Assembly (NCBI GenBank): GCA_045600445.1
Contig: JAZRXZ010000021.1
Span: 42,577-106,576 of the forward strand
Reading direction: 5' to 3'
DNA length: 64,000 bases
Source of the DNA: Bacteroidales bacterium
GTDB taxonomy: Bacteria; Bacteroidota; Bacteroidia; Bacteroidales; UBA3663
Shown here in pieces: positions 6,499 through 48,250 of this stretch. The notes beneath the pieces are model-generated. The model was given only the letters and a program-made list of their open reading frames with translations. It ran no database searches and was not told where the DNA came from. Positions within the stretch are counted from its first letter, which is position 1. The number at the start of each line of letters is the position of its first letter. Position numbers and translations under genes: made by a program.

Positions 6499-8901
6499 TT
6501 AGTCCCAGTCAAGGGTCGCATTGCCACTACCGGTCTTCTCCTCCCAAGCCTTAATCATAGCACGGAAAGAGATGGTTTCCTTACTCAAAAAAATCGTATA
6601 AATGTAATGCTTTCCTTGTTCCCATTGATTCAAATCGCTTGTTATTGGATCTCCATTTGAATCTGTGGTCTGGTACTCACATTTATTCAATTGAGCCTTA
6701 TAGGTAGCACCATTCCTAAGTGTTATAGTGATAATTGCATCATCATAGATTGTCTGAGGCACCATGACGTAATCTTTGAGAAGATTGACAGGTTTTCCAG
6801 ATTCCGGCGTAATACAATCTCCCAAAGAAGTGTCATTGCCGTTGCTCTTGGCGGGCAAGAAACCTGTATCATTTGTTGCATAAACAAATACTTTACTTGC
6901 CTTACTTCCTGTAACTTCAACTTTACCATTTTCAATAGTGATAGTACCAGTCGTGAACAAGTTCGAAATCTGGATCTTAGCCTGACTTAAGTCTAATCTT
7001 GGATTGAGCGGGTGATTATAAAGCGTCAAGTATTCATAATCATCCCACCCATCTACTGTAGCGTCCTTATTAATATCCTCCAGATTAAACGTCACCTTGC
7101 TCATGATGTGCTGGAAAGCCAGAGGCACACCACCCTTACGAGGAGGGATGGCAGCTCCGATCTCGTATACACGCTCATCGGTTTCTGATTTACCAATATG
7201 GCGAGGAGTATTTGCCCAAATGACATCATGACCATCTGCAATCGTTCCTTGAGATACAGAAGCTGGTTTATAATTATACGAATTGATTGCTCCAACACTT
7301 TCGGTATCAAACTCATTGGTTACAGTTTTACCTTTGTATATAGCCAGAGCACGGAAATAGTAATTATCCGTCTGGTTTGGCCAGTAGATTGGAGGTGTAT
7401 TCGTCCATTGGTCTTCTGAAGGGGCAGTATTGTTAGAGAAAGAACATACAGTTGAATAAGCATACTTCTCATTAGTACGCTCTTCTGAGTCATCAGTGTC
7501 ATTAGACTTCTTTACAGAGAACAAACTAAAAGCTGCACCAGTCTTGAACTTATCCTTATCAACAGTCTTAACTAAAATTTCTTCACCACTCTCAACGTTT
7601 TCGTCCGAGATATAATATTCGTCTTTGCCATTTGGCAAATCAATCTCACCCACAGCTTCTGCATTAACATCATCCCAGTTACGGATACTGGCTCTAACAT
7701 CAGTCGCCTGCTTCTTGATAGTCACTGTGATATGATAATTAACACCAGGAATGGTCATGCCACCATTACTTTCGTTATATCCAGAAGATACTAAATCTGG
7801 AGTAACCGAAGAAGCATTATAAGCAGCAAGTTTTGTACTCCACGCATCTGACTTCGTTTCTAAAGGCTCACCTTCCTTGGCATCAATGATAGCATCTGTC
7901 AGGAATACCTTATAATTATTATCATCAATGTTAGTCAGCGTGAGGAACGGATTATCTAGATCTGCCTTAAATACAGTTGGTGCAATCACAGCTTCAAACA
8001 CACACTGACGGTTATTGTTTGTAATAGCACCTTTCTTAAATATCACTTCCTTCTCATCGTCAGAGTTTGTACTAGGTGTAACTGTAGCTGTAGGTGCGGA
8101 AACGTTACATTTTGTAACCGCACTACTCAGCTTAACGACAGCATTTGCGAAGTTTCCACTCACGTTATCAAGAAAGCCATCTGCGCATATTACCGTGATA
8201 GTCACTTTACTCATAGCATGAGTATAAGGGATTTCGAGGTGACCTCTATCTGCCAGCGTATGCTTATACGCTACTGGAGACTGAGTCTTTGCAAAAAGCA
8301 GGTCGCTGGTCTTAAAAGCATTTGCAGCACCCTGATCAGCTAAAACAGTCCAATTACTTAGCAGTCCAGATGGTTCTGTGAGGGTAATAGGAGATTCAAT
8401 AGTTCTGCCATTATATCCATAACCATAATAAACCATTAAAGCGTGATTTGCAGTACGGAGGTCTGTTGTCTCAGATGCTGAATTGCTAAAATCATCCCAA
8501 TAAAGCCCTTGTGAATCTGTTACCGTCAAAGTAGAAGACGAATTATGATTGGTATAATTATCTGCTTCATTCAAATAACCATCTTTCAACACAGAAACCT
8601 TGAAATTTACCAAACGAGGTCCGACTCCTGTACCTGTTACATCTGCACTCCATACCAATGGATTAGTGGTAGCATCAGTAACAGTAACATGCTTGATATA
8701 AGCATTCAAAAGTTCGTCAGTAGTAAATTTATCGTCTGTAGCACGAGTCACAGAAGTCTCTGTCTTAAGCTTCATGTTTATCGCAATCGGAGTCTTCTCC
8801 ACCCCATTCAGGAATAAAGAAGTATCCACCACGTCATCTGTACATGATGTCAAGGCTGCTACACCTATAATACTATATATAAATTTCTTTATCATTGTCA
8901 T
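6499..8901 (-). CDS. Double-module fimbrillin-family surface lipoprotein
   Basis: 800-aa ORF with lipobox AALTSCTDD and an SVTRAT site. It has two H-x-M-S-K motifs (IPYTHAMSKVTITV, LAFQHIMSKVTFNL). It has two module-end W motifs (VRASIRNWDDV, FRAMIKAWEEK) and DNYYFRAL between the modules. Confidence 0.8.
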   Translation of the reverse strand: MTMIKKFIYSIIGVAALTSCTDDVVDTSLFLNGVEKTPIAINMKLKTETSVTRATDDKFTTDELLNAYIKHVTVTDATTNPLVWSADVTGTGVGPRLVNFKVSVLKDGYLNEADNYTNHNSSSTLTVTDSQGLYWDDFSNSASETTDLRTANHALMVYYGYGYNGRTIESPITLTEPSGLLSNWTVLADQGAANAFKTSDLLFAKTQSPVAYKHTLADRGHLEIPYTHAMSKVTITVICADGFLDNVSGNFANAVVKLSSAVTKCNVSAPTATVTPSTNSDDEKEVIFKKGAITNNNRQCVFEAVIAPTVFKADLDNPFLTLTNIDDNNYKVFLTDAIIDAKEGEPLETKSDAWSTKLAAYNASSVTPDLVSSGYNESNGGMTIPGVNYHITVTIKKQATDVRASIRNWDDVNAEAVGEIDLPNGKDEYYISDENVESGEEILVKTVDKDKFKTGAAFSLFSVKKSNDTDDSEERTNEKYAYSTVCSFSNNTAPSEDQWTNTPPIYWPNQTDNYYFRALAIYKGKTVTNEFDTESVGAINSYNYKPASVSQGTIADGHDVIWANTPRHIGKSETDERVYEIGAAIPPRKGGVPLAFQHIMSKVTFNLEDINKDATVDGWDDYEYLTLYNHPLNPRLDLSQAKIQISNLFTTGTITIENGKVEVTGSKASKVFVYATNDTGFLPAKSNGNDTSLGDCITPESGKPVNLLKDYVMVPQTIYDDAIITITLRNGATYKAQLNKCEYQTTDSNGDPITSDLNQWEQGKHYIYTIFLSKETISFRAMIKAWEEKTGSGNATLDWD

Positions 8902-8914
8902 CTTCAGTTAGATG

Positions 8915-11080
8915 TTAGAACCAGATGTCCTGACTTGCATTCACAGTTTCCCAATCGGTGACGGTGGCAGTAACAGATATAGCTGTCTTACGCACATCAA
9001 GCGTATAGATATAATGTACCCCAGCTTCCCATTTACCATTAGGAGCCACCTTATCTGTTGTAGATCCAGTTTTGAGAATTGGCTCTATGTTAGCATAGTA
9101 GATATCTGTAGTACTATCGCTATTTGTAATAGTAACCTTGAAACGAAGATACTTCGTAGTAGAAGCTTCCGTCCAAGTCAATGCTTGTGGAACAATAGCA
9201 GAATGTCGGATATTAACGGCATCCACGCCATCTCTGGCGACAACTCCATCGATAGCATCGAGTGTATAATTGCCACGACTACCAGAAACCACAGATACTC
9301 CATTTCCTAATTGAATATCTCCAGTAGTATAACCGTCAACAACTTCTACTACAGCACCAGACAAATTCACTTGATCGGTACCAGTCGAGGTCTTTAGACG
9401 CACCTCTACCTGAGACATCATATACTTGAAGTCCAAAGTTATACTTCCCGTTGTAGCACAGATACCATATTTTGACTGATCGACCTTCTTATGATCAGAG
9501 GTTTCACATTGAGTTCCCGACGCGATCACAGGCATACCGATCAGGAGGTCTGAAGGGAATGACCCGCTTGCATACTTCACATTCTTGACTGCGATGACCT
9601 GGGCCAAGTTTTCTGAATTCTTCTTTACACGAGGAGCTGCCCAATCATAACTTGCATCTGCAGTTGTAACGGTATTAGGCCACACTCCACGGAAGTGATA
9701 GTGAGTCTTATGGTTTGGCCAATAAAGGACTGGGGTCATTGTCCAAGTGCTACCAAGAGTTCCTGTTGGCTTACTCTCTGGTGCATAATAGTCATTTGCA
9801 TTCTCAGTGAAACCCTTGCTATATTCTAAAAGATTGTTCTCTGCTGGTGTCGAAGCGTACGGATCACTGGCACTTCTATACAAGCTAAAACTTGTGAACC
9901 CATCTGGTGTGGCAGTTCCTGACCCTAAATAAGAGGTGCTGATATTAATGATAGGAGCTTCAGAGGCCGTAACTTCAGTCCATGCTATCACTGAAGCAGA
10001 CACATTGATAGAGGTCTTATTGAGCGTGACATTCAAGATATAATTCTTACCACGCTCAAAGACCTTATCGGTTGCAGTATTTGCGTCATTGAGATTTTTA
10101 GCTTTCACATAATAGATATTATCATCTGCATTGATCTTAATGAGGTTATCTGCATCTGCGAACTTATTACCTGGCATAATGAGGCCATTATAGGTAACGT
10201 TATAACTGGCTGTTGGAGTAGTTTTCTCCTTTAGAGTGATCACTCCTTTCGTATCGTCGCTTCCATTTTTTGCAATAGTCGTTCCTGCTTCTATATTTAC
10301 AGTACCGTTCAAGTAGGTTTCACAAACGGTTACTACAGGAGTTGCTGTAAATTCATTGTTTGCAAAGCCATTGCCAGCTTTAAGATTAACCGTAATCTTG
10401 CTCATCGCATGGGTAAACTCCAAGAGCTTACCACTATTACGTTCTGCAAACTTATACGCATTATCATTCTCCGCTGTAGAACTATAAACTACATTATTAC
10501 TTGTCAGCAGATCATATTTCTCCCATTCTGTTTCAGCAATACTCTGTGCAGTTGGAAGTTTCCAAGTATAGTCCGTCCAAGAAGTCCCTGGGGTTTCATT
10601 TATCGTAAGTTCATTTACTGCATTATTATTCACACCAGCGCCATAGATGGTCAGGCCTTCAGTACGTCCTACTATCGCATTATCAGGATCTGCCATACCA
10701 TAGTCATCCCAATACAAAACGGTTGAGAGCGTCAGGCTATTATGCTTACTATTAGTAGCAGTTTCTGCACCGATTGTTGCAATAGTCTGTTTTTTCACAA
10801 GATTTGTGATCTCTCCATGTTTCCAGGTGCCTCTAACGTCCAGAAGCATCTTAGCACCATTGTTAATAAGTACATGATTCGCATGGTTAGCGTCAGGATT
10901 AGCCACAGCTCTTGTCTCCACATGAGAGTACCCTCCACTGATACCAGCGCTGAGGACAATAGGAGAAGGCCCCTCTCCCTGTACTGAGCTAGTAGGTTCT
11001 GTGACGGCATCATCACTACATGCCGTAAGCATCGCGAACGCTACGCTTATATATATATAATGTGTAAGCTTCATTTGCAT
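8915..11080 (-). CDS. Double-module fimbrillin-family surface lipoprotein
   Basis: 721-aa ORF with lipobox AMLTACSDD and a VETRAV site. Motifs are LEFTHAMSKITVNLKAGNG and FKYMMSQVEVRLK. Module ends are VSASVIAWTEV and VTATVTDWETV, with THYHFRGV between the modules. Confidence 0.8.
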   Translation of the reverse strand: MQMKLTHYIYISVAFAMLTACSDDAVTEPTSSVQGEGPSPIVLSAGISGGYSHVETRAVANPDANHANHVLINNGAKMLLDVRGTWKHGEITNLVKKQTIATIGAETATNSKHNSLTLSTVLYWDDYGMADPDNAIVGRTEGLTIYGAGVNNNAVNELTINETPGTSWTDYTWKLPTAQSIAETEWEKYDLLTSNNVVYSSTAENDNAYKFAERNSGKLLEFTHAMSKITVNLKAGNGFANNEFTATPVVTVCETYLNGTVNIEAGTTIAKNGSDDTKGVITLKEKTTPTASYNVTYNGLIMPGNKFADADNLIKINADDNIYYVKAKNLNDANTATDKVFERGKNYILNVTLNKTSINVSASVIAWTEVTASEAPIINISTSYLGSGTATPDGFTSFSLYRSASDPYASTPAENNLLEYSKGFTENANDYYAPESKPTGTLGSTWTMTPVLYWPNHKTHYHFRGVWPNTVTTADASYDWAAPRVKKNSENLAQVIAVKNVKYASGSFPSDLLIGMPVIASGTQCETSDHKKVDQSKYGICATTGSITLDFKYMMSQVEVRLKTSTGTDQVNLSGAVVEVVDGYTTGDIQLGNGVSVVSGSRGNYTLDAIDGVVARDGVDAVNIRHSAIVPQALTWTEASTTKYLRFKVTITNSDSTTDIYYANIEPILKTGSTTDKVAPNGKWEAGVHYIYTLDVRKTAISVTATVTDWETVNASQDIWF

Positions 11081-11107
11081 TACAATTAAAAACTCAGTTT
11101 ATCAAAA

Positions 11108-13501
11108 TTACTCAATCACTACCTCATCGTCTGGTGTAGCTACAATATTCTCCCAATCAACAACGGTGGCAGTAATGTTATCAATACCCGTCTTTTTCAA
11201 TACGAACTTATAATAATAGTTCTTTCCAGGCAGCCATTCTCCAATTACAGTAGAAGTACCGTTAACGGTGTGGGTACTGAGATTCGGAATCTTATAGACA
11301 TTTCCATCTGCAGTTGTGATCTCCATGCCTATCGTCTTAGTAACACTTCCTTCAGTATAGCTCAATGGCTGAGGGACAACGCGATATGAATAGTCATATG
11401 CTGGTATTGCTGGAGGTCCTGCTACTGCATCATGAGCATCAGACTTCATAGCTGTACCCGCGCCATCATCATAATTAGACAATTCTGTCACAAGTCCATT
11501 ACCCATCAGGAGCTTTGCGTCTTTTGCATATCGCAGGATTTTTACAGTAGCACCAGTAAGATTTACAGGGTTTGCTATAGTAGTTTCAAGATCAACAAAG
11601 ATATTACTCATCATGTGATGCTGTATCAACGTGATATTGTCTTTCGTTGCGCCTATAGCCTTATAAATCTGGCCTGCAGCATTAGTTTCAGCATTGCAGA
11701 ATCCTGTAATAGTCGAGTATTCCAAATTACTATCCTTAGGCTTGAAAGGAGCACCCCAAAGATAGTCGTTATCATCACTAATAGCACCAGACGATATGCT
11801 TACATAATCCTTAGGTTCAGATCCGTCTGGCGTTTGTACAGTCAATCCCGTATTAATAGTGCGGAAATGGTAGTATGTATCATTATTCGGCCATACCCAC
11901 TGATTGTTGCTTGCATCCTTTGCTGTATAAACTGTGCCTCCTATAGCCGACTGGGTTAATGTTGCCTTATTACCAGTTACTGTATATCCTGTATTCCAAT
12001 CATATTTAGCCCAATCATTATAATTGCTACCATTATATGTATTAGGATCTTTTGCTCGATATAAATCTACCTGAGGATCTGCTGTATTAACCGCAGTTCC
12101 TTCATCTGTCTTCAATAAAAGATTCACATAAGTATTTGATGGGGTCAGTTCATTCGCCTCAACGTTTTGCCATGAGGCAACGGTAGCAGTAATATTATTA
12201 ATGGCAGTTTTACCAATGGTAAAAGTGAAGACATAATTCTTTCCTGCCTCAAGAGGAATATAAGTTCCGTTGTTCGTTTTCTCTGTTGCTCCAGTCTTTC
12301 CCGTCAGCACATTGTACAACATACCAGATGTGATCTGATACTTATTATTATCGATGGAAAACTCCATCATAACATTTGTTGCATCATCTTTTACAAAACG
12401 ACTATGATCGTCATGTTGAGGAGTATCATAGCCCTGCATAAACTCATCAATATTAGGAACAACAAGTGCCTCTAATACATGTAGTGTTGCAGTATTAGTC
12501 TTATGATAGATCGAAGGAATATCACTATGATTATTAATCTGTTGGAAAATACCTTGCTGAATGCTAAAAAGTCCTTCAGTATTAAAGTTTGTCAACTTAA
12601 TATTCGTTGAGGTAAACTTAAAATCCGAAGAAGCATTATCTCCAGTCGTGATAAATCCATCACCTTCTTTAATATTGATAGTGATTTTGGCCATAGCATG
12701 ATAAAACCTCATCACATTATCCGTAGGGAATGTGCGATTTGTGAAATCAAACTTCAGGCTTTTATCACTTCCACCAAGACCTGTACCGCCATTTTCTAAC
12801 GAGCTAGCATTATCTACCAGATTATTACTGAATAGCAAGTCCTGACACATGACACTAGTTTCACTTTGTGCTCCTCCATCATGATGACTTGCTTTCCAGT
12901 TAAAAATAAGTGGATAAATAGGAGTAGTTTTCCAAACAATATTCTCTGTCGTCTCGTAAGGTTGTTTCTTATATGGAGATGGAGGATTATCACTATTATC
13001 ATCCACGGCAAAAGAGCATTCTGTCCAAGACATTCCCTTCTGTGCATAAGCCCAAATATTCAGTTTTGTGCTTCGTGCATGTGCATCATCCCAATACTTT
13101 TGATTATTTTCATCAAAAGTGACAGACATTCCACTATTAGTGTCATCTTTCTTCTTGACATCTCCACGAGAAACAGTATACTTAGGGTCAAGTGCAGTCC
13201 CCGTCACCTGATAGTCAGGATGAGATGTATCATATACACTCTTCATGATCATGAAGATCTTTGTATCTACATCAAATGGCTCCATATTGTCTGTGCCATC
13301 AGTAATCACAGCACGAGTCAATATGTTGCTCTCCTCACCCCCTACAGATAAAACAATAGGAGTTTTCGTTACAATCTCTGGCTCTGGTTCTGGAACTGGA
13401 GGTGTAACGACATCTTCCACACCGCCCTTATCTGCACAAGCTGCGAGAGCGAATGCAGATGAAAGGACTAAAAGATTGATATATAACTGATGTTTTTGCA
13501 T
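11108..13501 (-). CDS. Double-module fimbrillin-family surface lipoprotein
   Basis: 797-aa ORF with lipobox ALAACADK and ILTRAV (R63, 41 residues after the Cys). Motifs are RFYHAMAKITINIKEGDG and LIQHHMMSNIFVDLET. Module ends are ITATVASWQNV and ITATVVDWENI, with TYYHFRTI between the modules. Confidence 0.8.
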   Translation of the reverse strand: MQKHQLYINLLVLSSAFALAACADKGGVEDVVTPPVPEPEPEIVTKTPIVLSVGGEESNILTRAVITDGTDNMEPFDVDTKIFMIMKSVYDTSHPDYQVTGTALDPKYTVSRGDVKKKDDTNSGMSVTFDENNQKYWDDAHARSTKLNIWAYAQKGMSWTECSFAVDDNSDNPPSPYKKQPYETTENIVWKTTPIYPLIFNWKASHHDGGAQSETSVMCQDLLFSNNLVDNASSLENGGTGLGGSDKSLKFDFTNRTFPTDNVMRFYHAMAKITINIKEGDGFITTGDNASSDFKFTSTNIKLTNFNTEGLFSIQQGIFQQINNHSDIPSIYHKTNTATLHVLEALVVPNIDEFMQGYDTPQHDDHSRFVKDDATNVMMEFSIDNNKYQITSGMLYNVLTGKTGATEKTNNGTYIPLEAGKNYVFTFTIGKTAINNITATVASWQNVEANELTPSNTYVNLLLKTDEGTAVNTADPQVDLYRAKDPNTYNGSNYNDWAKYDWNTGYTVTGNKATLTQSAIGGTVYTAKDASNNQWVWPNNDTYYHFRTINTGLTVQTPDGSEPKDYVSISSGAISDDNDYLWGAPFKPKDSNLEYSTITGFCNAETNAAGQIYKAIGATKDNITLIQHHMMSNIFVDLETTIANPVNLTGATVKILRYAKDAKLLMGNGLVTELSNYDDGAGTAMKSDAHDAVAGPPAIPAYDYSYRVVPQPLSYTEGSVTKTIGMEITTADGNVYKIPNLSTHTVNGTSTVIGEWLPGKNYYYKFVLKKTGIDNITATVVDWENIVATPDDEVVIE

Positions 13502-13589
13502 CGTATATATGTTTGTTTTATGATTTAATGACTTTCGTCAATTTTTGATCGATTATTTCAACGTCGCGTACACGATGTCAGTATTCTTG

Positions 13590-13822
13590 ATGCAGGATGT
13601 GCTCACAGAGATTCGTGCAGTCCCTTCCTGCTTGCGGGAAGTGTTCCCAGTGATTCGTGCGGACCCTTCCTGCTTGCGGGAAGTGCTCCCAGTGATTCGT
13701 GCAATCCCTTCCTGCTTGCGGGAAGTGCTCGCAGTGATTCGTGCGATCCCTTCCTGCGAGAAGGAAGGGACGCCGTGCATGCAAGACATCCGTTCTTGCG
13801 TGCAGGATAGGACGGCACGAAT
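13590..13822. repeat. Tandem repeat array A: four 42-bp units plus a terminal 9-bp-stem hairpin and an inverted end motif
   Basis: ATTCGTGC recurs at 13611, 13653, 13695 and 13737, an exact 42-nt period. Each unit contains CCCTTCCTGCTTGCGGGAAGTG (CTTCC/GGAAG arms). The last unit ends in a perfect hairpin TCCCTTCCT-gcgaga-AGGAAGGGA (13747-13770). GCACGAAT, the reverse complement of the unit motif, lies at 13815-13822. The array sits in the 331-bp gap between two pilin-like genes. Confidence 0.9.
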
Positions 13823-13832
13823 TCAGATTAGC

Positions 13833-16244
13833 TTAGTTCTCAAGATTGATGTCTGTAGAGCCAGCGGTGACGGTTACCCATTGAGCTACAGAAGCCGTGA
13901 TATTTTCAATCTTGGTCTTTGAAAGCTTGAAAGTATATGTATAGGTATGATTTGGATACCAGCGAACAATCGCCTCATCTTGAACATGCTGCTGACCAGC
14001 CTGAGCTCCGACAACAGAAGCAGTTATCTTTGACAAGTCAGCCTCAACATAGTAGGTATTGCCATCCTTTGTGGTGATGGTAATACCGACGAGCTCTGCT
14101 GTTGTTGCAGCACCATCTCCAGTATGGCGATTCAATGCCTGAGGAATTACAGAACAGGTAAATGGCTTTGTCATAGGACTTTCTGTTTCCCAATAATCTG
14201 ATGAACCTGGGGCTTTAGTTGGAACTGAACCATCAACAGTTGAGCTAGGTGTAATCAAACCAGTTCCCATATCTACAGTTGCAGTAGTTGCAAGACGTGT
14301 AATGGTTACTGTTGTACCTGCAGAAAGATCAACCTTATCTGTACCAGTTGTGGTTTCCAAAACGATATTCAAGTTGCTCATCATGTGTAGCTCGGTGATC
14401 TTAATATCACTCTCAGTAGCAACGATACCTTGATGGAGGCTTGATTCATAACCCTTATCTACATCATATTTCAAAGTAGCACCATCGCCTGCACCAGCAC
14501 TTGTTTCTTTCTTCATAGGAGCACCCCAATGATAATCAGGAGAATCAGTACCTGCAGTCATTGTAAAATAACTCTTGCTGTCAGTAGTATTCTGAATATT
14601 TCCATCTTTAACGGAATTTCCTTCTGAATCTTTTGAATTAGCAGCCAAAGCATTTAACGTACGGAAATGATATGCGGTACTATTGTCTTTATAATACCAA
14701 TCTGTCTGATACTTACTAGCATTAGGAGCTGCCATTGTAGAAGTAGTTGCTGCACCTTCTGTCTTATAATCACCGCTATAATTAGTTGCAGTATAATTAT
14801 CGGTTGGCTTAGTTACAGGGGCTGTCAAAGTCTCTGCAAGACGATAGAACTGGAAACCTTCAGAACAAACAGTTCCTGATGCCGAGTACAAATCAAAGGT
14901 TACATGAGAGTTATTCATAGACAAAGAACCCTTAACTTCTGCCCAAGGAGTAAGTGTTGCGGTAATAGCAGCAATTGCGGTTTTGTTTACGGTAATTGAG
15001 AAGTTGTAATTCTTGCCTTGCTCCATAGAGATAGGACCAGTAGCACCAGCCAACATGCCATCGCCATCATTTGCGTCATACGAATTATTACCATTCTTAT
15101 CGTATGTCAAAGCGTCAAACAACATGTCCTGAGTTACATAATAGGTGTTTCCATCGATAGTAAACTCCATTACGTTGGTATCATCGCCATTTGTAAAGAC
15201 ATATTCTGGGAGCATCTGTGCCACATAAGTACCAGATGCATCTGTTTGGTCTGTAGTTTTTGCTAGAACATCAATATTCTTAACATTATCATTAGTTGAA
15301 CCAGCAGTTTTGTTAATGGTCCAAGTTCCAGTAGCAATATTTAAAGTACCCTTAACATACATGTTTAAGAGTTTTATATTTTCCGTAGCAGTTTTGAACT
15401 TAAAATCAGAACCTACACCTGCAGTAAATCCTTCTCCTTCAACCAAAGTAATAGTCATACGTGATAGTGCGTGGTTGAAGACAAGATGACCACGGTCAAA
15501 GTGACCAGGAGCACTGGTTAAGTCCTTAGTAGCGGCATCGGTATCAGTCATACCATCCTGATAGAAAAGCATCTGACCATCCTTATGTCCATTACTCCTA
15601 CCATTATTTTCAGGGTATGGATATCGGTAAATACCATTTTTTCCACCACTTTTAATATTATTACTATAAACTAAATCCTCAAGATCAATAGTCTTAGTTG
15701 GAGTATTTGCATCCGGAGCATCTTTTGTCTGTGTTCCTGTTGTAACCTGCCATGCTATGGTATTTGTGTCATCAGTACCCCAAGTAGTTTCTCCTGTATT
15801 TAGACCTGAGTTAATAAGCTCCTCCAAAGTTTTTTCATTATTCTTTAAGGAGTTACCGCCATTAGGAATTGCTACAGCATATACAGACAATAATGACTTA
15901 CGACCAAATGCATCATCCCAATAACGCTTATCACTTGTATTAAAAGTTACATCCGAATAATCATCTACACCAGAACCACCAACGGCAGCGGTGGCTACTG
16001 TTCTTGTATATTTGGCATTTGTTGTATTTCCTTTCTCGTTACCCTGAATACGCATAACCAAATGCGTAGCAGAACCTGTAAAACCTGCACGAGTGCTAGC
16101 CGCTCCATCGCTCAGCGAGAACGAAATCATCTCTTTCTGAGAATCTGGAATAGGTTGATCTACTGCGTTGACCTCATCATCGCTACAAGAGGGTGCAGCG
16201 AGAAGTGTGGCGGTGATTGCCAATGGATAGATGTACTTTTTCAT
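13833..16244 (-). CDS. Double-module fimbrillin-family surface lipoprotein
   Basis: The track ORF runs to 16412, but the signal peptide MKKYIYPLAITATLLAAPSCSDD starts at Met57 (cat at 16242-16244). The longer version would overlap the upstream gene. It has an ASTRAG site and the motifs LVFNHALSRMTITLVEGEG and ITELHMMSNLNIVLET. Module ends are ITATLTPWAEV and ITASVAQWVTV. Confidence 0.8.
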   Translation of the reverse strand: MKKYIYPLAITATLLAAPSCSDDEVNAVDQPIPDSQKEMISFSLSDGAASTRAGFTGSATHLVMRIQGNEKGNTTNAKYTRTVATAAVGGSGVDDYSDVTFNTSDKRYWDDAFGRKSLLSVYAVAIPNGGNSLKNNEKTLEELINSGLNTGETTWGTDDTNTIAWQVTTGTQTKDAPDANTPTKTIDLEDLVYSNNIKSGGKNGIYRYPYPENNGRSNGHKDGQMLFYQDGMTDTDAATKDLTSAPGHFDRGHLVFNHALSRMTITLVEGEGFTAGVGSDFKFKTATENIKLLNMYVKGTLNIATGTWTINKTAGSTNDNVKNIDVLAKTTDQTDASGTYVAQMLPEYVFTNGDDTNVMEFTIDGNTYYVTQDMLFDALTYDKNGNNSYDANDGDGMLAGATGPISMEQGKNYNFSITVNKTAIAAITATLTPWAEVKGSLSMNNSHVTFDLYSASGTVCSEGFQFYRLAETLTAPVTKPTDNYTATNYSGDYKTEGAATTSTMAAPNASKYQTDWYYKDNSTAYHFRTLNALAANSKDSEGNSVKDGNIQNTTDSKSYFTMTAGTDSPDYHWGAPMKKETSAGAGDGATLKYDVDKGYESSLHQGIVATESDIKITELHMMSNLNIVLETTTGTDKVDLSAGTTVTITRLATTATVDMGTGLITPSSTVDGSVPTKAPGSSDYWETESPMTKPFTCSVIPQALNRHTGDGAATTAELVGITITTKDGNTYYVEADLSKITASVVGAQAGQQHVQDEAIVRWYPNHTYTYTFKLSKTKIENITASVAQWVTVTAGSTDINLEN

Positions 16245-16279
16245 ATTTTGTTTTTTTATTATCGAGATAGAATTGTCTG

Positions 16280-17512
16280 TTACTTTTCGAGGTCGGTGCT
16301 CAACGAGCCAGAGATGTCTTGCCATGGCTGGAGCACGCAGGTGAAGTGGATCGGACGAGGATCGAAACGCTTCAGAACGATATAATAGGTGTAGATGGTG
16401 TTCGGCTCCCAAGTGAACTGTGTGGTGGTTGTGTTGTCTGGGAGAACGAGAACTATGTGCTCGTCATGATAAGTGACGTCACCGATCTTGAGCGATACGG
16501 TCATCTCTACATTCTGCTGTGGCATCTGAAGCAATCCGTCTGGCACTTCACACATATAAGCCTTGGCCTGCGAGGTGCACTGGTTGATCTGACGCTTCAC
16601 GTCGGGAGTAGTAGATCCGATGGCAGCAGTGAGAAGTGTCACGCCAGCGTCGGTGGTAGTCTTCGGTCCAAAGGCTCCGTCCATCATGCTGCCGGTGGTA
16701 AGGCCGGTGGCTTCATAGCCTTTGGCATCGGTGACGAAACCGCTGGAGATTACCTTGACCGTGACATCGCTGATAATTCTTCCGTCAGAGATGCTGGCTG
16801 CATCGTCATCGTCGCAATAAATACCAAAGCGCACTTTAGAGGTGAGATGGTGGAATGGCAGAGCGACAGAGCGGTTGAGCGTAGCGCTCGAAGTGTTGAT
16901 CTGCACAGGATTGCCGTCTGCATCATTGATGACATGGTCGAGGTCCTTGCCTGCTCCATCGCGTGAAACCTGTGCTACGAGATATGGCTCGGCCTGGGGT
17001 GTTGGCATAGACAACGTGCCTTCAGCGGCCGTCTGATAGCTGTAAGTCACCGTCTGTGGGATGGTGAGTTTCTGACCATCGAGCGTGAAGTTAGCAATGT
17101 CAGTATGTGCAGGACAGGGTGAGATGGCATGGAAACGATAAGGGAAATTATTGAAGTCCCAGTATCGCTCAATCTGCCTCTGGTAGAAAGATTCTGGCTC
17201 ACCGATGTAGCACCACTCTGAGGTACCATACCAATCGTTTTGCTTATACTGAACTTCATATTTGCCCATCACATCCTGTTGTTTGCTGCCAGCAAAAGCC
17301 TTCCAGCATGAGACGAGGAATCCCTGATTGAGGGCGCTGCCAGCACGGGTGCCAGCCTGCTCGCTCACATTATAGGAGGTGAAGCGCATCAGTTCGTTGC
17401 TCTCTGGTACAGAAGCCTCAGGCTCTTCGACAACTGAGTCAGAAGAGCAGGCAGATGCCAGCAGCGCAACGGACAGAAGCCAGGGAGATATTTCAGGACG
17501 AGAAAATGCCAT
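16280..17512 (-). CDS. Fimbrillin-family surface lipoprotein (single module)
   Basis: 410-aa ORF with lipobox LLASACSSD and an AGTRAG site. It has the motif LPFHHLTSKVRFGIY and the C-terminal strand FTCVLQPWQDI. It is visibly more GC-rich than the genes to its left. Confidence 0.75.
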   Translation of the reverse strand: MAFSRPEISPWLLSVALLASACSSDSVVEEPEASVPESNELMRFTSYNVSEQAGTRAGSALNQGFLVSCWKAFAGSKQQDVMGKYEVQYKQNDWYGTSEWCYIGEPESFYQRQIERYWDFNNFPYRFHAISPCPAHTDIANFTLDGQKLTIPQTVTYSYQTAAEGTLSMPTPQAEPYLVAQVSRDGAGKDLDHVINDADGNPVQINTSSATLNRSVALPFHHLTSKVRFGIYCDDDDAASISDGRIISDVTVKVISSGFVTDAKGYEATGLTTGSMMDGAFGPKTTTDAGVTLLTAAIGSTTPDVKRQINQCTSQAKAYMCEVPDGLLQMPQQNVEMTVSLKIGDVTYHDEHIVLVLPDNTTTTQFTWEPNTIYTYYIVLKRFDPRPIHFTCVLQPWQDISGSLSTDLEK

Positions 17513-21605: not shown

Positions 21606-23083
21606 CGTGCATCTCCTTTCTTTGCTGACTTGTTACGACGATAGAGGATATCGTAGGTGATCTGGATACCCAGGTTGGTAGGGCCGAACCAGACGAACTG
21701 ATGGTTGCGCTCCTTGAAGTTTGAGGCTGAACCGAGGTAATCATAGTAATAATCGCCATCGATCTCTCCTGAGAGCGGATTGCCATAGACGTATGGATCG
21801 TAGCGTGTGATATAAGCTCCTACGGCGGCCATGAACTCAAGGCGCCAGTTGCCGCGCTTGCTGATCGGCATCACATATCCGACAGAGAGGCCTGCACCTC
21901 CACCCTCACCTTGCCAGCCTTTGGTCTTGCTCAGGCCGATGCCGTATTTGCCGCCTTGTGCATAAAGACCAGCATAAGCGCCGAGGAATTCGCCTCCTCC
22001 ACGGAAGTAGCGACGGAGCTCGAGCTGAATGTCGCGCCACTGCCAGAACTTCTGCTGGCTCCACTTGCGGTTAGTACCCCAGGTGATGCCGGCATTGTAG
22101 GTATAATGTCCATCAAGCGGATAATATTCGAGCTGGAGGTTTGGCGAGTAGGCCATACCGAATTGTGGCATGTAGAAGAAGTCGTGCAGCAAGTTGGTGC
22201 GAAGAGCCATGAGATGGCGACGCTCCTGTGGCTGCGGCTGCTGAGGCACCTCAACTGGAGTCTGTACCTGGATGACCGGAGCTTCGATAATTATAGAATC
22301 CGGCTTCTCAATCTTCTCGATTTCGACATTGCTGACCGAGACACTCTCAAAGACTGGAGCCGGACGTGACAGCCAGAGGACAATACGTGCAGTACGAAGT
22401 TCTGGGAAATACTGCTGCTTGAGGCGCGACCATAAACGACCACCATCGAGGCGGCTGAGCTGCAACTTGCATGTCTGTTCGTCACCATTACAAGCATCAA
22501 AGATCTGCTTGACACGAGCATAGTCAACATCATTGCGCTGCTGCATCAGAGTGATGAGGTAAGCATAATCTTCGGTAACACTTTGCACATCCATCTTGAT
22601 CTCCTGTTGAGCGAAAGGTCCACCAGAGAGATCGGTCTTGATGAGAGATTGCAGGGCTTCGGTACGACCCTGTCCTAAGCGACGGTTATTTTCATACGAT
22701 CCCTCTGGCGATGCAGCGCCACGAAGGAAGAGCTGACGGAGCTGGTAGCCTTCACGCTGAAGGAAAGGTAACAGTTCACGATAGGTACGGAAGAAATCGG
22801 AATTGGTATTGATCTCGGTGCGATTGACCTGGAAACGGACACCGACAGCCAAGGCGTTGAAGAGCGAGTCTGTCATCACAGGAGCCTCATCAACATTGTA
22901 ATCAGAAACGATAACGAAAGGATACTCTGCCATGACGGAGTAGCGCTCAGTATCGAGCAAACGCTCAATCTCAGTCATTGAGGATGACAGAACAGCCGCA
23001 CGACATAGTCCTATGGAGAAGACCCATAGGAGAATCGACAAAAACAGGTGCTGTGCGGTTTTCATAAAGATACGATTAAACAA
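21602..23083 (-). CDS. Outer-membrane protein: OmpA-C-like/DUF3868-like module plus C-terminal DUF3575-like beta-barrel
   Basis: 493-aa ORF with a type I signal peptide. The N-terminal half has GAASPEGSYENNRRLGQGRTEAL. The C-terminal half (ALRTNLLHDFFYMP..NLQLEYY..ELRRYF..GAYAGLY..GLSVGYVMPIS..WRLEF) matches my memory of DUF3575 proteins that head Bacteroidales fimbrial operons. Confidence 0.65.
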   Translation of the reverse strand: MFNRIFMKTAQHLFLSILLWVFSIGLCRAAVLSSSMTEIERLLDTERYSVMAEYPFVIVSDYNVDEAPVMTDSLFNALAVGVRFQVNRTEINTNSDFFRTYRELLPFLQREGYQLRQLFLRGAASPEGSYENNRRLGQGRTEALQSLIKTDLSGGPFAQQEIKMDVQSVTEDYAYLITLMQQRNDVDYARVKQIFDACNGDEQTCKLQLSRLDGGRLWSRLKQQYFPELRTARIVLWLSRPAPVFESVSVSNVEIEKIEKPDSIIIEAPVIQVQTPVEVPQQPQPQERRHLMALRTNLLHDFFYMPQFGMAYSPNLQLEYYPLDGHYTYNAGITWGTNRKWSQQKFWQWRDIQLELRRYFRGGGEFLGAYAGLYAQGGKYGIGLSKTKGWQGEGGGAGLSVGYVMPISKRGNWRLEFMAAVGAYITRYDPYVYGNPLSGEIDGDYYYDYLGSASNFKERNHQFVWFGPTNLGIQITYDILYRRNKSAKKGDAR

Positions 23084-23108
23084 ACTTAATATTAAAATAT
23101 TATGGGTG

Positions 23109-23140
23109 CAAATTTAGCAATATTTTTCGCGAAAACCAAA
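23109..23140 (-). promoter_or_regulatory. Bacteroidetes-type promoter for the pilus operon (TTTG-N20-TAAATTTG)
   Basis: The minus strand reads TTTG (23140-23137), then 20 nt, then TAAATTTG (23116-23109). This matches the -33 TTTG / -7 TAnnTTTG consensus. It lies 26 nt upstream of the ATG at 23083. Confidence 0.6.
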
Positions 23141-23145
23141 TTTAG

Positions 23146-23181
23146 AAAAAAAAAAAAAATGGAGTTGCCCCCATTTTTTTA
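23146..23181 (-). terminator. A-tract/hairpin/T-tract intrinsic terminator after wecA, containing a 14-nt homopolymer
   Basis: The minus strand reads AAAAAAATGG-gggcaact-CCATTTTTTT followed by further T residues. On the plus strand this is an A14 run at 23146-23159. It lies between the wecA stop and the pilus promoter. Confidence 0.5.
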
Positions 23182-23222
23182 ATTTTTGCAAGGAAAAATG
23201 CAAGTAATTATACATAATGCAA

Positions 23223-23268
23223 GCTTTGTTACGGGAAAAAGCGCAATGTAACAAAGCATGTAACAAGC
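23223..23268. repeat. Inverted repeat GCTTTGTTAC-N15-GTAACAAAGC plus a third copy GTAACAAGC
   Basis: The arms lie at 23223-23232 and 23248-23257 and are perfect over 10 bp. A further direct copy at 23260-23268 abuts and overlaps the wecA stop codon (23268-23270). Confidence 0.7.
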
Positions 23269-47581: not shown

Positions 47582-48052
47582 CTATCGCATTTTCTGATTA
47601 GCACCACGTTTTTTGCGAAGCTCCTGACGCAAGAGGTTGTAGTACTCTGGTCCTGCTTTACTTTTCGTGCCCCCCACTGTAGTACCGAGTTTTCGCTGGA
47701 AGAAGCGCCAGAGTGAATCATCGCTGGCATATCCACAGGCATGAGCGACTTCAGTAAGGGTTGCATCTGGATGCTCCTGAGTGTACTGCTGCACCTGATT
47801 GATGCGATACTGCTGAATCACGTCAATCAGTTTCATTCCCAGATCGAGCTGGATGGCACACGCTAATCTGCGTGCGTCGACATCGAGATATTCTGCGATT
47901 TCCTTACTCTCGATCAGGTGCGTCTGAAAGAGTGCATGTGCCAACGCGTTAACGATCGGTGAGGCTGTGTAGGTTTCAGCATTACCTGGATTGTAGTCAA
48001 TAACCTGCTGAAAAGTAGCAACTGGAAGGTAAGGATGTTTTTCTTTTATCAT
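47582..48052 (-). CDS. AraC-type helix-turn-helix protein (DNA-binding domain only)
   Basis: 156-aa ORF. The HTH_18-like region is SKEIAEYLDVDARRLACAIQ...TLTEVAHACGYASDDSLWRFFQRKLG. It has no sensor or receiver domain. Confidence 0.7.
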   Translation of the reverse strand: MIKEKHPYLPVATFQQVIDYNPGNAETYTASPIVNALAHALFQTHLIESKEIAEYLDVDARRLACAIQLDLGMKLIDVIQQYRINQVQQYTQEHPDATLTEVAHACGYASDDSLWRFFQRKLGTTVGGTKSKAGPEYYNLLRQELRKKRGANQKMR

Positions 48053-48250
48053 AATCCTGACATTAGGTTTGTGATGTTAGTATTCTGTATTTGTGAAGCT
48101 GACATTACGTACGTGTTGTCAGCTTTCTGTATTCGTGAAGCTGACATTACGAACGTGTTGTCAGCTTTCTGCATCTGTGAAGCTGACATTACGTACGCGT
48201 TGTCAGCTTTTTGCATCCGCGAAGCTGACATTACGTTCGTGATGTCAGCA
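48053..48250. repeat. Tandem repeat array B: four 42-bp units, each with palindrome GCTGACA-N12-TGTCAGC, plus one degenerate unit
   Basis: Units start at 48095, 48137, 48179 and 48221. The 7-bp arms are identical in all four units while loops and linkers vary. Loops contain ACGTACGT, ACGAACGT or ACGTTCGT. The degenerate copy is at 48053-48094. The SDR stop codon (48231-48233) lies inside the last hairpin loop. The array abuts the AraC start codon at 48052. Confidence 0.9.

What the first reader, a model, noticed from the sequence alone, without database searches (positions are those of the whole stretch)
13502..13832. 42-bp-period tandem array (array A) in the only large gap of the pilus operon
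The one sizeable intergenic gap in the 23-kb operon is filled by four exact-period 42-bp units (ATTCGTGC at 13611, 13653, 13695 and 13737). Each unit has CTTCC/GGAAG arms. The array is capped by a perfect 9-bp-stem hairpin (13747-13770). It ends in GCACGAAT (13815-13822), the reverse complement of the unit motif.

There is no T-tail, so it is not a standard intrinsic terminator. 42 bp is four helical turns, so all copies face the same side of the DNA, as expected for a cooperative protein-binding array. As RNA it would be a string of stem-loops between the 803-aa and 797-aa cistrons. Either way it could set the ratio of proximal to distal pilus genes by attenuation, processing or stability. 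I do not recognise it as a known element.
Basis: seen in the sequence. Interest (0 to 1): 0.6.

Follow-up and report, generated by a model that had tools for sequence, protein, structure and literature searches.

The report
Docking-site repeat array inside fimbrial operon
The 42-bp repeats are real and are one of about 80 such arrays in this uncultured gut-type Bacteroidales genome; they travel with a large family of tiny MarA-like DNA-binding proteins and are most likely docking sites for them, an arrangement I could not find described anywhere.

Summary
Observation confirmed: four exact 42-bp units (13591-13757), the 9-bp hairpin, the GCACGAAT end and the missing T-tail are all there.

It is not a device specific to this operon. 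The genome holds 84 arrays with exactly 42-bp period in at least 37 sequence families. All are built on one lattice of dyad centres 21 bp apart, and they sit mainly just after gene 3' ends. Array A is four units of family F2, about 1.5 units of family F3 and a decayed GTAC hairpin, all in phase.

New link: all 13 small (95-209 aa) AraC/MarA-type HTH-only genes of the genome lie within 77 nt of such repeats. Protein clades track array families across species and in metagenome contigs (clade alpha with F2, alpha2 with F3, alpha3 with F4). Sampled genomes without these genes had no arrays. F2 shows no compensatory stem changes, and arrays as a class show no transcribed-strand folding bias.

Best reading (0.55): a double-stranded DNA docking array for clade-alpha proteins acting in trans, possibly a roadblock between proximal and distal fimbrillin genes. 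Five related species keep an unrelated 41/42-bp array in the same junction. Binding and effect are untested.

This scan met the class before, on array B of this window and on other genomes.

The parts
13833..16412 (-). Upstream (proximal) double fimbrillin-like gene. The ORF runs from TTG at 16412, or 803 aa from the ATG at 16244. Its stop codon is at 13833-13835, 10 nt (13823-13832) before the repeat block, which ends at 13822.
   Evidence: ORF list. Pfam PF13149 Mfa_like_1, E 2.2e-23.
13763..13822 (.). Cap of about 1.5 units of a second unit family (F3 type, GGACG..TGCATGCA..CGTCC). It is in phase with the F2 units, with dyads at 13779.5 and about 13800.5. It ends in GCACGAAT (13815-13822).
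   Evidence: Sequence. Three-way alignment with the same 4xF2 + 2xF3 composite at C140 and C159 of the genome (A1). Lattice analysis.
13747..13770 (.). Perfect 9-bp stem with a 6-nt loop at the F2/F3 junction, with its dyad at 13758.5 on the same lattice.
   Evidence: Sequence. Dyad scan gives 9/10 matches at 13758.5.
13591..13757 (.). Four F2 units of exactly 42 bp. Each is arm GGAAGKGYTC.CA, linker GTGATTCG, arm TG.R.YCCCTTCC, linker TGCTTGCG. That makes eight 21-bp half-sites in alternating orientation, with dyads at 13632.5 + 21n.
   Evidence: TRF. The repeat finder. Dyad scan. F2 unit alignment A2.
13556..13583 (.). Decayed unit of a third type, a hairpin with a GTAC apex (GTAC at 13568-13571). 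Its centre at 13569.5 is exactly 63 bp (3 x 21) from the first F2 dyad.
   Evidence: Sequence. Stem-loop 13561-13578 reported. It resembles the genome's AACGTTGCGTACAGAACGTT family.
13502..13555 (-). Leader of the downstream gene. The motifs CATCGTATATATG..TTGTTTT and CTTTCGTCAA.TTTTGA are shared with the orthologous locus of species G045. There is no Bacteroidetes-type TAnnTTTG promoter box on the transcribed strand.
   Evidence: Comparison of upstream regions. TANNTTTG scan.
11108..13501 (-). Downstream (distal) double fimbrillin-like gene, 797 aa. It is the first of at least three further paralogues and more genes on the same strand.
   Evidence: ORF list. Pfam PF13149, E 5.2e-16.

Best explanation
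Array A is a double-stranded-DNA docking array. It has about eleven 21-bp half-sites in alternating orientation on one helical face. It belongs to a genus-wide system in which an expanded family of stand-alone MarA/SoxS-like (AraC-type double-HTH) proteins is paired with tandem arrays of 42-bp double-dyad units, clade by clade.

Shown here:
- the lattice;
- the genome-wide class and its 3'-end bias;
- the tight adjacency of small HTH genes and arrays;
- the match between protein clade and array family across species;
- the lack of RNA-type signatures.

Inferred:
- The proteins bind the arms (GGAAGG.../...CCTTCC for family F2), one monomer per 21-bp half-unit. This matches the roughly 20-bp footprint known for MarA.
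- Array A has no HTH gene beside it, so it is a trans target of the clade-alpha paralogues. Its F3 cap would be a target of clade alpha2.
- A filled array acts as a bidirectional obstacle or insulator for RNA polymerase. Here that would limit read-through from the proximal fimbrial genes into the 797-, 721- and 800-aa paralogues when the proteins are present.
For: (1) Class and geometry.
- There are 84 merged arrays with period exactly 42, against one each at 41 and 43.
- In an alignment-free hairpin census, 86 of 114 neighbour spacings are exact multiples of 21 nt.
- The lattice runs unbroken across different unit families in array A and in the G045 composite.

(2) Gene link.
- PF12833 finds 29 AraC-type genes in the genome. 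All 13 small ones (95-209 aa) lie 77 nt or less from a 42-bp array (12 cases) or from F3-type hairpins (C42). Only about 4.5% of intergenic gaps hold an array.
- In 19 of 22 species of the genus that have a true homologue, the best-scoring gene has a 42/43-bp array within 171 nt. The 8 species with only weak hits have none.

(3) Clade and family match.
- Clade alpha (C4:67, C125, C122; G004 C123 and C134; G041 C73; ENA contigs at 66% and 69% identity) pairs with F2 arms GGAAGG../..CCTTCC on the 3' side.
- Clade alpha2 (G000 C42; G041; G045) pairs with F3.
- Clade alpha3 (five loci in G004, G045 and G017, plus an ENA contig at 57%) pairs with F4.
- Clade beta pairs with F1/F7. Clades gamma and delta each have their own arrays on the 5' side.
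- Orthologues of the C144 protein at 92, 85, 66 and 66% identity keep the arm core GTCCGAC/GTCGGAC while loops and linkers change.

(4) Phyletic pattern.
- Sampled genomes with many such genes have arrays: G000 27 per Mb, G035 25 per Mb, G014 12 per Mb, and G004 many.
- Sampled genomes with none or only weak hits have none: G016, G040 and G008, in 172-200 kb each.

(5) DNA-level rather than RNA-level signal.
- In 93 F2 units the palindromic register is real (78% and 75% paired, against 37-51% when slid).
- Pairing is no better than when partners are shuffled among units (77.2% and 75.0%).
- The sense strand is not the better folder (14 against 23 arrays, p = 0.11; array A -59.7 against -73.5 kcal/mol).

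(6) Protein type.
- The proteins are full double-HTH AraC/XylS DNA-binding domains and nothing else. The profile matches MarA 1bl0, SoxS 7w5w and AdpA 3w6v.

(7) Position.
- Homologous fimbrial operons of G045, G043, G007, G042 and G044 carry a 41/42-bp array of unrelated sequence in the same junction. In G045 it is made of F3, F4 and F2, the three alpha-linked families.
Against:
- Adjacency and clade-family matching could come from gene and array being inherited or moved together as one module, without binding.
- Array A has no HTH gene next to it. Its arms (GGAAGTGCTC / GGAAGGGAY) differ from the GGAAGGTATC arms beside the alpha genes of this genome.
- Two alpha-clade genes (G045 C62, G044 C30) and the best loci of G004 and G042 lack an array.
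- G018 has two 41-bp arrays but only weak HTH hits.
- About 68 of 80 arrays are orphans, so most copies need action in trans.
- The roadblock function is pure inference. MarA-type proteins are classically activators.
- Gene calls used for the context statistics are crude ORF calls, arrays are not independent observations, and all genomes are drafts (G000 is 78.6% complete).
Confidence: 0.55

Rival explanations
1. A REP/BIME-like genomic repeat that acts, if at all, as RNA. The polycistronic fimbrial mRNA folds into a row of stem-loops. These would attenuate read-through or protect the upstream message from 3' exonucleases, as the REP between malE and malF does in E. coli. The neighbouring HTH genes would be coincidental or secondary.
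For: - Arrays sit after gene 3' ends. In co-directional gaps 32 of 37 are nearer the upstream stop (median 62 nt) than the next start (207 nt).
- Convergent gaps are enriched (26 observed, 13.5 expected) and divergent gaps depleted (7 observed, 19.7 expected).
- The gap folds far better than shuffles on the sense strand (z = -5.75).
- No Bacteroidetes-type promoter box lies between array and downstream gene, so the array is probably transcribed.
- Single hairpins of several families followed by T-runs look like ordinary terminators.
- Some array is conserved in the same operon junction in five species.
Against: - No compensatory changes in 93 F2 units.
- No preference for the transcribed strand, and no G-T over A-C excess.
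- Array A folds worse on the sense strand.
- Arrays lie as often after as before canonical terminators, and do not replace them (29% against 22% of gaps have one).
- This reading does not explain the strict 21-bp lattice across unrelated families.
- It does not explain the 13 of 13 adjacency to small HTH genes or the clade-family match.
- No Rfam match even at E = 1.
Confidence: 0.2
2. A mobile or self-propagating module. The small HTH gene plus its array would be a selfish unit, comparable to a RAYT gene flanked by its REPs. Orphan arrays such as array A would be non-autonomous derivatives that spread by recombination or gene conversion into tolerated sites, with no regulatory role in the fimbrial operon.
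For: - The same 4xF2 + 2xF3 composite recurs at three loci at 69-77% identity, with unrelated flanks.
- Gene and array keep a fixed side and polarity within each clade.
- Arrays are gained, lost or replaced at orthologous gaps. The C81 gap holds F2 in G000 and G004 but another family in G045. The C140 gap has arrays in G000 and G004 but only a terminator in G045.
- Copy numbers differ between sister species (F2 4.1 against 2.2, F3 2.1 against 3.2).
- Ten of 84 arrays lie at contig ends.
Against: - The HTH-only proteins have no catalytic domain.
- No Y1 transposase (PF01797) was found in G000 or G004.
- No terminal inverted repeats or target duplications flank the composites.
- No hit on plasmids.
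- Arm sequence and 42-bp phasing persist down to 66% protein identity, which needs selection or a sequence-specific maintenance process.
- This reading does not exclude binding. It only denies a host function.
Confidence: 0.15
3. An ordinary intrinsic terminator, or a neutral local duplication of one, specific to this gap.
For: Hairpins lie directly after a stop codon. Local tandem duplication is the simplest source of four near-identical units.
Against: - No T-tract on the transcribed strand.
- 39 matches to the array elsewhere in the genome, and 84 arrays of identical period.
- The same family occurs in two other species.
- Genes needing read-through lie downstream without a visible promoter.
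Confidence: 0.03

Closest known systems
Marbox-type operators of stand-alone AraC/XylS DNA-binding proteins (MarA, SoxS, Rob; PDB 1bl0, 7w5w)
   Same: The partner proteins are essentially a bare double-HTH AraC-type domain of 110-165 aa, like MarA. The repeat half-unit of 21 bp matches the roughly 20-bp asymmetric site that one MarA monomer covers (own knowledge of the MarA-DNA structure). One protein type would serve many dispersed sites.
   Different: - Marboxes are single sites in promoters. Here, 4 to 20 or more half-sites are packed head-to-head and tail-to-tail without spacing, mostly after gene 3' ends.
- There are a dozen or more paralogues per genome, each clade with its own array family.
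- The gene itself sits within 77 nt of an array.
- Binding is not shown.
REP elements and BIME mosaics with their RAYT transposases (E. coli, Pseudomonas, Stenotrophomonas; PMC3733652)
   Same: - Short imperfect palindromes that are extragenic and present in many copies.
- Clustered into mosaics of different unit types.
- Enriched after genes and between convergent genes.
- Each repeat family lies beside the gene of its own protein clade.
- An intercistronic REP can set relative expression within an operon (malE-malF; own knowledge).
   Different: - No GTAG or CGTC end tag in F2.
- No Y1 transposase in G000 or G004.
- The associated protein is a non-catalytic HTH.
- Units are strictly head-to-tail on a 21/42-bp lattice with no variable spacers.
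- At least 37 families in one genome.
- The host is Bacteroidales.
BrickBuilt minisatellite-MITE of Porphyromonas gingivalis (PMC4596501) and the 188-bp PINSR repeat of Prevotella intermedia (PMC4755523)
   Same: Intergenic, non-coding, dispersed repeats of Bacteroidales with no function assigned in the cited papers. BrickBuilt is also a spacer-less tandem array. Small spurious ORFs get called over PINSR, as they do over the arrays here.
   Different: - BrickBuilt has a 23-nt unit with leader and tail segments and inverted-repeat ends. PINSR is a single 188-bp unit without inverted ends.
- The parts of the two papers that I read (term searches) do not mention a 42-bp double-dyad unit, many families sharing one lattice, or an associated DNA-binding protein family.
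MIRU (mycobacterial interspersed repetitive units)
   Same: Tandem repeats of 40-100 bp that sit in intercistronic gaps of operons and vary in copy number between strains (own knowledge).
   Different: MIRUs are not palindromic, are oriented with transcription, carry short coupled ORFs, and have no associated binding-protein family.

Membership tests
REP/BIME (RAYT-associated repetitive extragenic palindromes) | Short imperfect palindromes, extragenic, many copies per genome | tested here: met
   80 non-coding arrays totalling about 12 kb. 452 of 714 strong hairpins are intergenic. Units are double palindromes.
REP/BIME (RAYT-associated repetitive extragenic palindromes) | Conserved GTAG or CGTC tetranucleotide at one end of the palindrome (PMC3733652) | tested here: not met
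   The F2 consensus GGAAGGGATCnCAGnGATTCGTGCGATACCTTCCTGCATGnA and its complement contain neither tag (A2). F3 has CGTC only inside its stem.
REP/BIME (RAYT-associated repetitive extragenic palindromes) | A cognate Y1 (IS200/IS605-like) RAYT gene in the genome, flanked by the repeats | tested here: not met
   PF01797 is not found in G000 (78.6% complete) or in its array-rich sister G004 (86% complete). The control genomes give hits.
AraC/XylS-family operator arrays (marbox type) | A cognate AraC-type DNA-binding protein genetically linked to the site family | tested here: met
   Met for family F2 as a whole. Clade-alpha genes with F2 units at their 3' side occur in G000 (3), G004 (2), G041 (1) and two ENA contigs. 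Not met in cis at array A, which is flanked by fimbrillin genes only.
AraC/XylS-family operator arrays (marbox type) | Site length and phasing fit one double-HTH domain per site on one DNA face | tested here: inconclusive
   Half-unit of exactly 21 bp, and dyads on a 21-bp lattice. The proteins align to the whole MarA/SoxS domain. The fit to a roughly 20-bp footprint is inference from known structures.
AraC/XylS-family operator arrays (marbox type) | Sequence-specific binding of the protein to the site | not testable with these tools
   Needs EMSA, DAP-seq or ChIP.
Intrinsic (Rho-independent) terminator | GC-rich hairpin directly followed by a U-tract on the transcribed strand | tested here: not met
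   No such site on the minus strand of 13300-14000. Sequence read directly.
MITE | Terminal inverted repeats and target-site duplication at the borders of dispersed copies | tested here: not met
   The three composite copies align from the first F2 unit to the last F3 unit. Their flanks are unrelated and show no shared inverted ends or duplications (A1).
CRISPR array | Repeats separated by unique spacers of similar length | tested here: not met
   Units abut without spacers, with period equal to unit length of 42 bp.
Structured RNA family (Rfam) | Match to a curated covariance model, or compensatory base changes supporting a fold | tested here: not met
   No Rfam match at gathering score in the window or at E <= 1 in the gap. 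Pairing in 93 F2 units is not above the column-shuffle control.

The most novel reading that the evidence does not exclude
Some uncultured Bacteroidales run a previously unknown genome-wide system. A dozen or more paralogous, non-catalytic MarA-like proteins would each recognise their own family of 42-bp double-dyad repeats. The repeats have spread to dozens of gene ends and operon junctions. Filled arrays would serve as programmable, bidirectional transcription barriers or insulators. This would be a REP-RAYT-like partnership of repeat and protein, but built for DNA binding instead of transposition. In the fimbrial operon it would decide which of the paralogous giant fimbrillins are made.
Probability: 0.3. 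Interest if true: 0.85.

Novelty: new variant of a known kind. Interest (0 to 1): 0.65.

Why it matters
If the pairing reflects binding, this is a new way for bacteria to organise transcription. Instead of one operator per promoter, whole families of phased site arrays would be spread over gene ends and read by an expanded set of minimal AraC-type proteins.

It would bear on several open points:
- Why many Bacteroidales gene ends lack canonical terminators.
- How surface structures such as Mfa-type fimbriae, which come in runs of paralogues, are expressed selectively.
- What many small "HTH domain" genes of gut and rumen metagenomes do.

Practical consequences:
- The arrays break assemblies (10 of 84 lie at contig ends).
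- Because 42 bp equals 14 codons, they generate spurious 100-130-aa ORFs.
- They vary in copy number between sister species, so they matter for annotation and strain typing.

Tried and rejected
- RAYT/Y1 transposase partner: none in G000 or G004.
- Canonical terminator: none in the gap. Genome-wide, arrays neither replace nor consistently precede terminators.
- Known RNA family: no Rfam hit.
- RNA-structure selection: the sense against antisense folding test, the G-T against A-C asymmetry test and the covariation counts on 93 F2 units were all negative.
- MITE borders: none.
- Orthologous locus by DNA in 30 relatives: only repeat hits, because the fimbrillin genes are too diverged. Solved by protein search.
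- Exact-protein look-up of the 797-aa gene: not on record.
- Relatives of that gene in JGI metagenome contigs: none.
- Clade-alpha protein on plasmids: no match.
- Named NCBIfam family for the small HTH proteins: none above cut-off.
- Literature: five full-text searches found no description of 42-bp phased palindrome arrays or of their link to small AraC proteins in Bacteroidales. PINSR and BrickBuilt were read and are different.
- 21-bp TRF rows in the genome: mostly two-copy noise, or the half-period of the 42-bp arrays.

Full report
**1. The observation**

The array is exactly as described.
- Tandem Repeats Finder reports 13591-13757, period 42, 4.0 copies, 89% matches and no indels.
- The repeat finder gives four copies in register at 42-bp steps.
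- From the sequence itself, ATTCGTGC starts at 13611, 13653, 13695 and 13737.
- TCCCTTCCT (13747-13755) pairs perfectly with AGGAAGGGA (13762-13770).
- GCACGAAT is at 13815-13822.

The genes run on the minus strand.
- The array lies between the stop codon of a fimbrillin-like gene (13833-16412; 803 aa from the ATG at 16244) and the start of the next one (11108-13501; 797 aa). Both match Pfam Mfa_like_1.
- The 331-bp gap is the largest in a run of minus-strand genes from about 30.6 kb down to the window start. A 184-bp gap lies at 23084-23267.
- No hairpin plus T-run lies on the transcribed strand.
- Both strands fold better than every shuffle, with z = -5.75 for the sense strand and -5.69 for the antisense strand.

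**2. Anatomy**

Each 42-bp unit is a double palindrome: arm (13), linker GTGATTCG (8), complementary arm (13), linker TGCTTGCG (8). The array therefore has dyad centres every 21 bp, at 13632.5 + 21n.

The gap is a composite.
- To the right, the four units (family F2 in my numbering) run in phase into about 1.5 units of a different family (F3: GGACG..TGCATGCA..CGTCC; dyads at 13779.5 and about 13800.5).
- To the left lies a decayed hairpin with a GTAC apex centred at 13569.5, exactly 63 bp from the first F2 dyad.
- The same composite of four F2 and two F3 units recurs at two other loci of the genome (C140:5636-5876 and C159:5500-5732) at 69-77% identity, with unrelated flanks.

**3. A genome-wide class**

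The window lies on contig C21 of a 3.07-Mb draft genome with 197 contigs, 78.6% complete.
- TRF on the whole genome gives 95 rows with period exactly 42, against one each at 41 and 43. The next commonest long period is 84.
- Merged, these are 84 arrays. Four of them lie inside long ORFs; the three on C106 and C150 look like protein repeats.
- The remaining 80 arrays fall into at least 37 sequence families at the threshold used.
- All are double palindromes. The mean is 12.4 of 21 circular pairs Watson-Crick, against 9.2 in shuffles.
- Most have GTAC or TGCA(TGCA) at one dyad.
- An alignment-free census of strong hairpins shows the same thing: 86 of 114 neighbour spacings are exact multiples of 21 nt.

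**4. Where arrays sit**

These figures use crude ORF calls.
- 26 arrays lie between convergent genes, 37 between co-directional genes and 7 between divergent genes. Gaps of 200 nt or more would give 13.5, 36.8 and 19.7 (chi-square p = 5e-5).
- In co-directional gaps, 32 of 37 arrays are nearer the upstream stop (median 62 nt) than the next start (207 nt).
- Arrays neither replace nor consistently precede canonical terminators. Such terminators occur in 29% of gaps with arrays and 22% of gaps without, and the order is 11 against 9.

**5. Tests for an RNA role**

- In the 37 arrays with a defined transcription direction, the sense strand is the better folder in 14 and the antisense strand in 23 (p = 0.11). 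Array A folds worse on the sense strand (-59.7 against -73.5 kcal/mol).
- There is no excess asymmetry of G-T over A-C mismatches (p = 0.10).
- In 93 distinct F2 units from this genome and relatives (A2), the palindromic register is real: 78% and 75% of cells paired, against 37-51% when slid.
- Pairing is no higher than when the 3' partners are shuffled among units (77.2% and 75.0%). At the most variable pair, U-A 28, G-C 25 and unpaired 39 are close to independence.
- No Rfam family matches.
- The stems are therefore not maintained by compensatory change. What is conserved is arm sequence: GGAAG and CTTCC are invariant or at least 90% conserved.

**6. The link to small AraC-type genes**

- PF12833 finds 29 genes. 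The 13 small ones (95-209 aa) all lie within 77 nt of a 42-bp array (12 cases) or of F3-type hairpins (C42). Only about 4.5% of gaps hold an array.
- The proteins are bare double-HTH AraC/XylS domains. The profile matches MarA, SoxS, AdpA and the C-terminal domains of AraC and XylR. No named NCBIfam family applies.

Their clades track both the family and the side of the array:
- alpha (C4:67, C125, C122): F2/F9 arrays on the 3' side;
- alpha2 (C42): F3, on the 3' side;
- beta (C118, C16, C95): F1/F7, on the 3' side;
- gamma (the array-B gene, C192, C194, C144) and delta (C72, C43): each with its own unique array directly 5' of the start codon.

**7. The link holds outside this genome**

- A profile of nine of the proteins (A3) finds 12-20 copies in many of the 39 species of the genus and none in six.
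- At the best locus of each species, 19 of 22 species with a true homologue have a 42/43-bp array within 171 nt. The eight species with only weak hits have none.
- Orthologues of the C144 protein at 92, 85, 66 and 66% identity keep the arm core GTCCGAC/GTCGGAC while loops and linkers change.

Pairings found in relatives and metagenome contigs:

| Clade | Loci | Neighbouring array |
|---|---|---|
| alpha | G004 (C123, C134); G041 (C73) | F2 units on the 3' side |
| alpha | ENA contigs at 66% and 69% identity | F2 units on the 3' side |
| alpha2 | G041; G045 | F3 |
| alpha3 (more distant subclade) | five loci in G004, G045 and G017; ENA contig at 57% identity | F4 |

Two alpha genes (G045 C62, G044 C30) have no array.

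Array density in sampled DNA follows the gene family:

| Genome | Small-HTH hits | Arrays of period 41-43 |
|---|---|---|
| G000 | 13-19 | 27 per Mb |
| G035 | 14 | 25 per Mb |
| G014 | 7 | 12 per Mb |
| G004 | 19 | many (biased sample) |
| G016 | 0 | none in 200 kb |
| G040 | 0 | none in 172 kb |
| G008 | 4 weak | none in 200 kb |
| G019 (another family of the order; HTH search not run) | - | none in 123 kb |

G018 is an exception, with two 41-bp arrays but only weak hits.

The exact F2 pattern occurs in only two other species representatives, both labelled "MAG: Bacteroidales bacterium".

**8. This junction in relatives**

Protein search finds homologous operons in eight species of the genus.
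- In G045, G043, G007, G042 and G044, the gap directly upstream of the best homologue of the 797-aa gene holds a 41- or 42-bp array of unrelated sequence.
- In G041 the neighbouring gap does.
- G005 has a tight junction of about 50 nt and no array. The G017 contig ends there.
- In G045 (55% protein identity) the junction holds about 12 units of F3, F4 and F2 on one unbroken lattice. These are the three families tied to the alpha subclades.

Persistence with turnover is general.
- Two other arrays of G000 are at the same sites in the sister species G004 (about 90% identity), with other copy numbers (F2 4.1 against 2.2; F3 2.1 against 3.2; F2 4.0 against 2.7).
- One of those gaps holds a different family in G045. 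The other holds only a terminator there.

**9. Reading**

The evidence fits best with double-stranded-DNA docking arrays for the small MarA-like proteins. One monomer would bind per 21-bp half-unit. This is inference from the known roughly 20-bp MarA footprint.

Array A would be an orphan array read in trans by clade alpha, and its cap by alpha2.

I infer the action as a bidirectional obstacle to RNA polymerase, from four points:
- the position after gene ends and between convergent genes;
- the lack of orientation preference;
- the gamma and delta arrays that abut their own start codons;
- the absence of a TAnnTTTG promoter box between array A and the distal genes.

Here such an obstacle would gate expression of the distal fimbrillin paralogues. 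None of this last step is shown.

The rivals are a REP/BIME-like RNA hairpin effect and a co-inherited or mobile gene-array module without host function. Both remain open.

**10. Limits**

- All genomes are drafts, and gene calls for the statistics are ORF-based.
- Arrays and relatives are not independent samples.
- The G004 sample was chosen around repeat hits.
- Earlier notes of this scan had already met the class on other DNA (41-42-bp and 21-22-bp arrays in Prevotella-like Bacteroidales). I used them as leads only.
- I found no publication describing it.

Noticed in passing
window 47582-48249: Array B (48057-48249, 42 bp x 4.6, GCTGACA..ACGTACGT..TGTCAGC) ends 5 nt upstream of the start codon of a 156-aa HTH-only AraC-type gene (47582-48052, minus strand) of clade gamma. 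It sits on the same 42-bp design as array A.
   Followed up: partly
window 23081-23144: The 184-bp gap at 23084-23267 carries three minus-strand TAnnTTTG boxes spaced 28 bp apart (23081, 23109, 23137). This is a likely promoter region for the fimbrial gene run that contains array A.
   Followed up: no
whole genome (e.g. C118:29893-30237, C140:5606-5944, window 13553-13789): Because 42 bp equals 14 codons, 27 of 84 arrays lay inside ORFs of 100 aa or more in my crude calls. About 23 of those ORFs are short (about 100-180 aa) and made largely of repeat. Gene callers are likely to annotate them as hypothetical proteins.
   Followed up: partly
G000 C106:2572-2827 and C150:2181-2264: Two 42-bp-period repeats lie inside long ORFs (about 829 and 820 aa). 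They look like genuine 14-residue protein repeats, not members of the non-coding class.
   Followed up: no
G000 C116:11492-11529, C194:54654, C126 (one search list): Single hairpins of families F2, F1, F3, F12 and the array-B family, each followed by a T-run, look like ordinary intrinsic terminators. Array families and terminator hairpins may share ancestry.
   Followed up: partly
L037, L055, L057, L059, L062 (G014); L045 (G010); L114, L115 (G018); L164 (G014) and L165 (G003): Other species of the genus have arrays with period 41 (TTCCGAAGTTTTCGGAA-type hairpins) or 43 (next to small HTH genes) instead of 42. The period seems to be set per lineage or family.
   Followed up: partly
L188 (G045:C62:800-3000) and L192 (G044:C30:700-2900): Two clade-alpha HTH genes in different species share nearly identical 3' flanks (aaatacgataaatatgctaaatacgataaatac repeats) and have no 42-bp array. 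They may sit on a shared mobile element.
   Followed up: no
window 6499-16244: Four adjacent genes of 720-803 aa each match Mfa_like_1 in two stretches (double fimbrillin). Their homologues in seven other species also come as tandem paralogues.
   Followed up: partly
L212, L216 (G035:C5): In G035, arrays reach about 10 units, and some alternate two unit types with an 84-bp super-period (ACCAATCTTGGCCAAGA.. with CACTCTGACGGCCGACAGAGTG).
   Followed up: no
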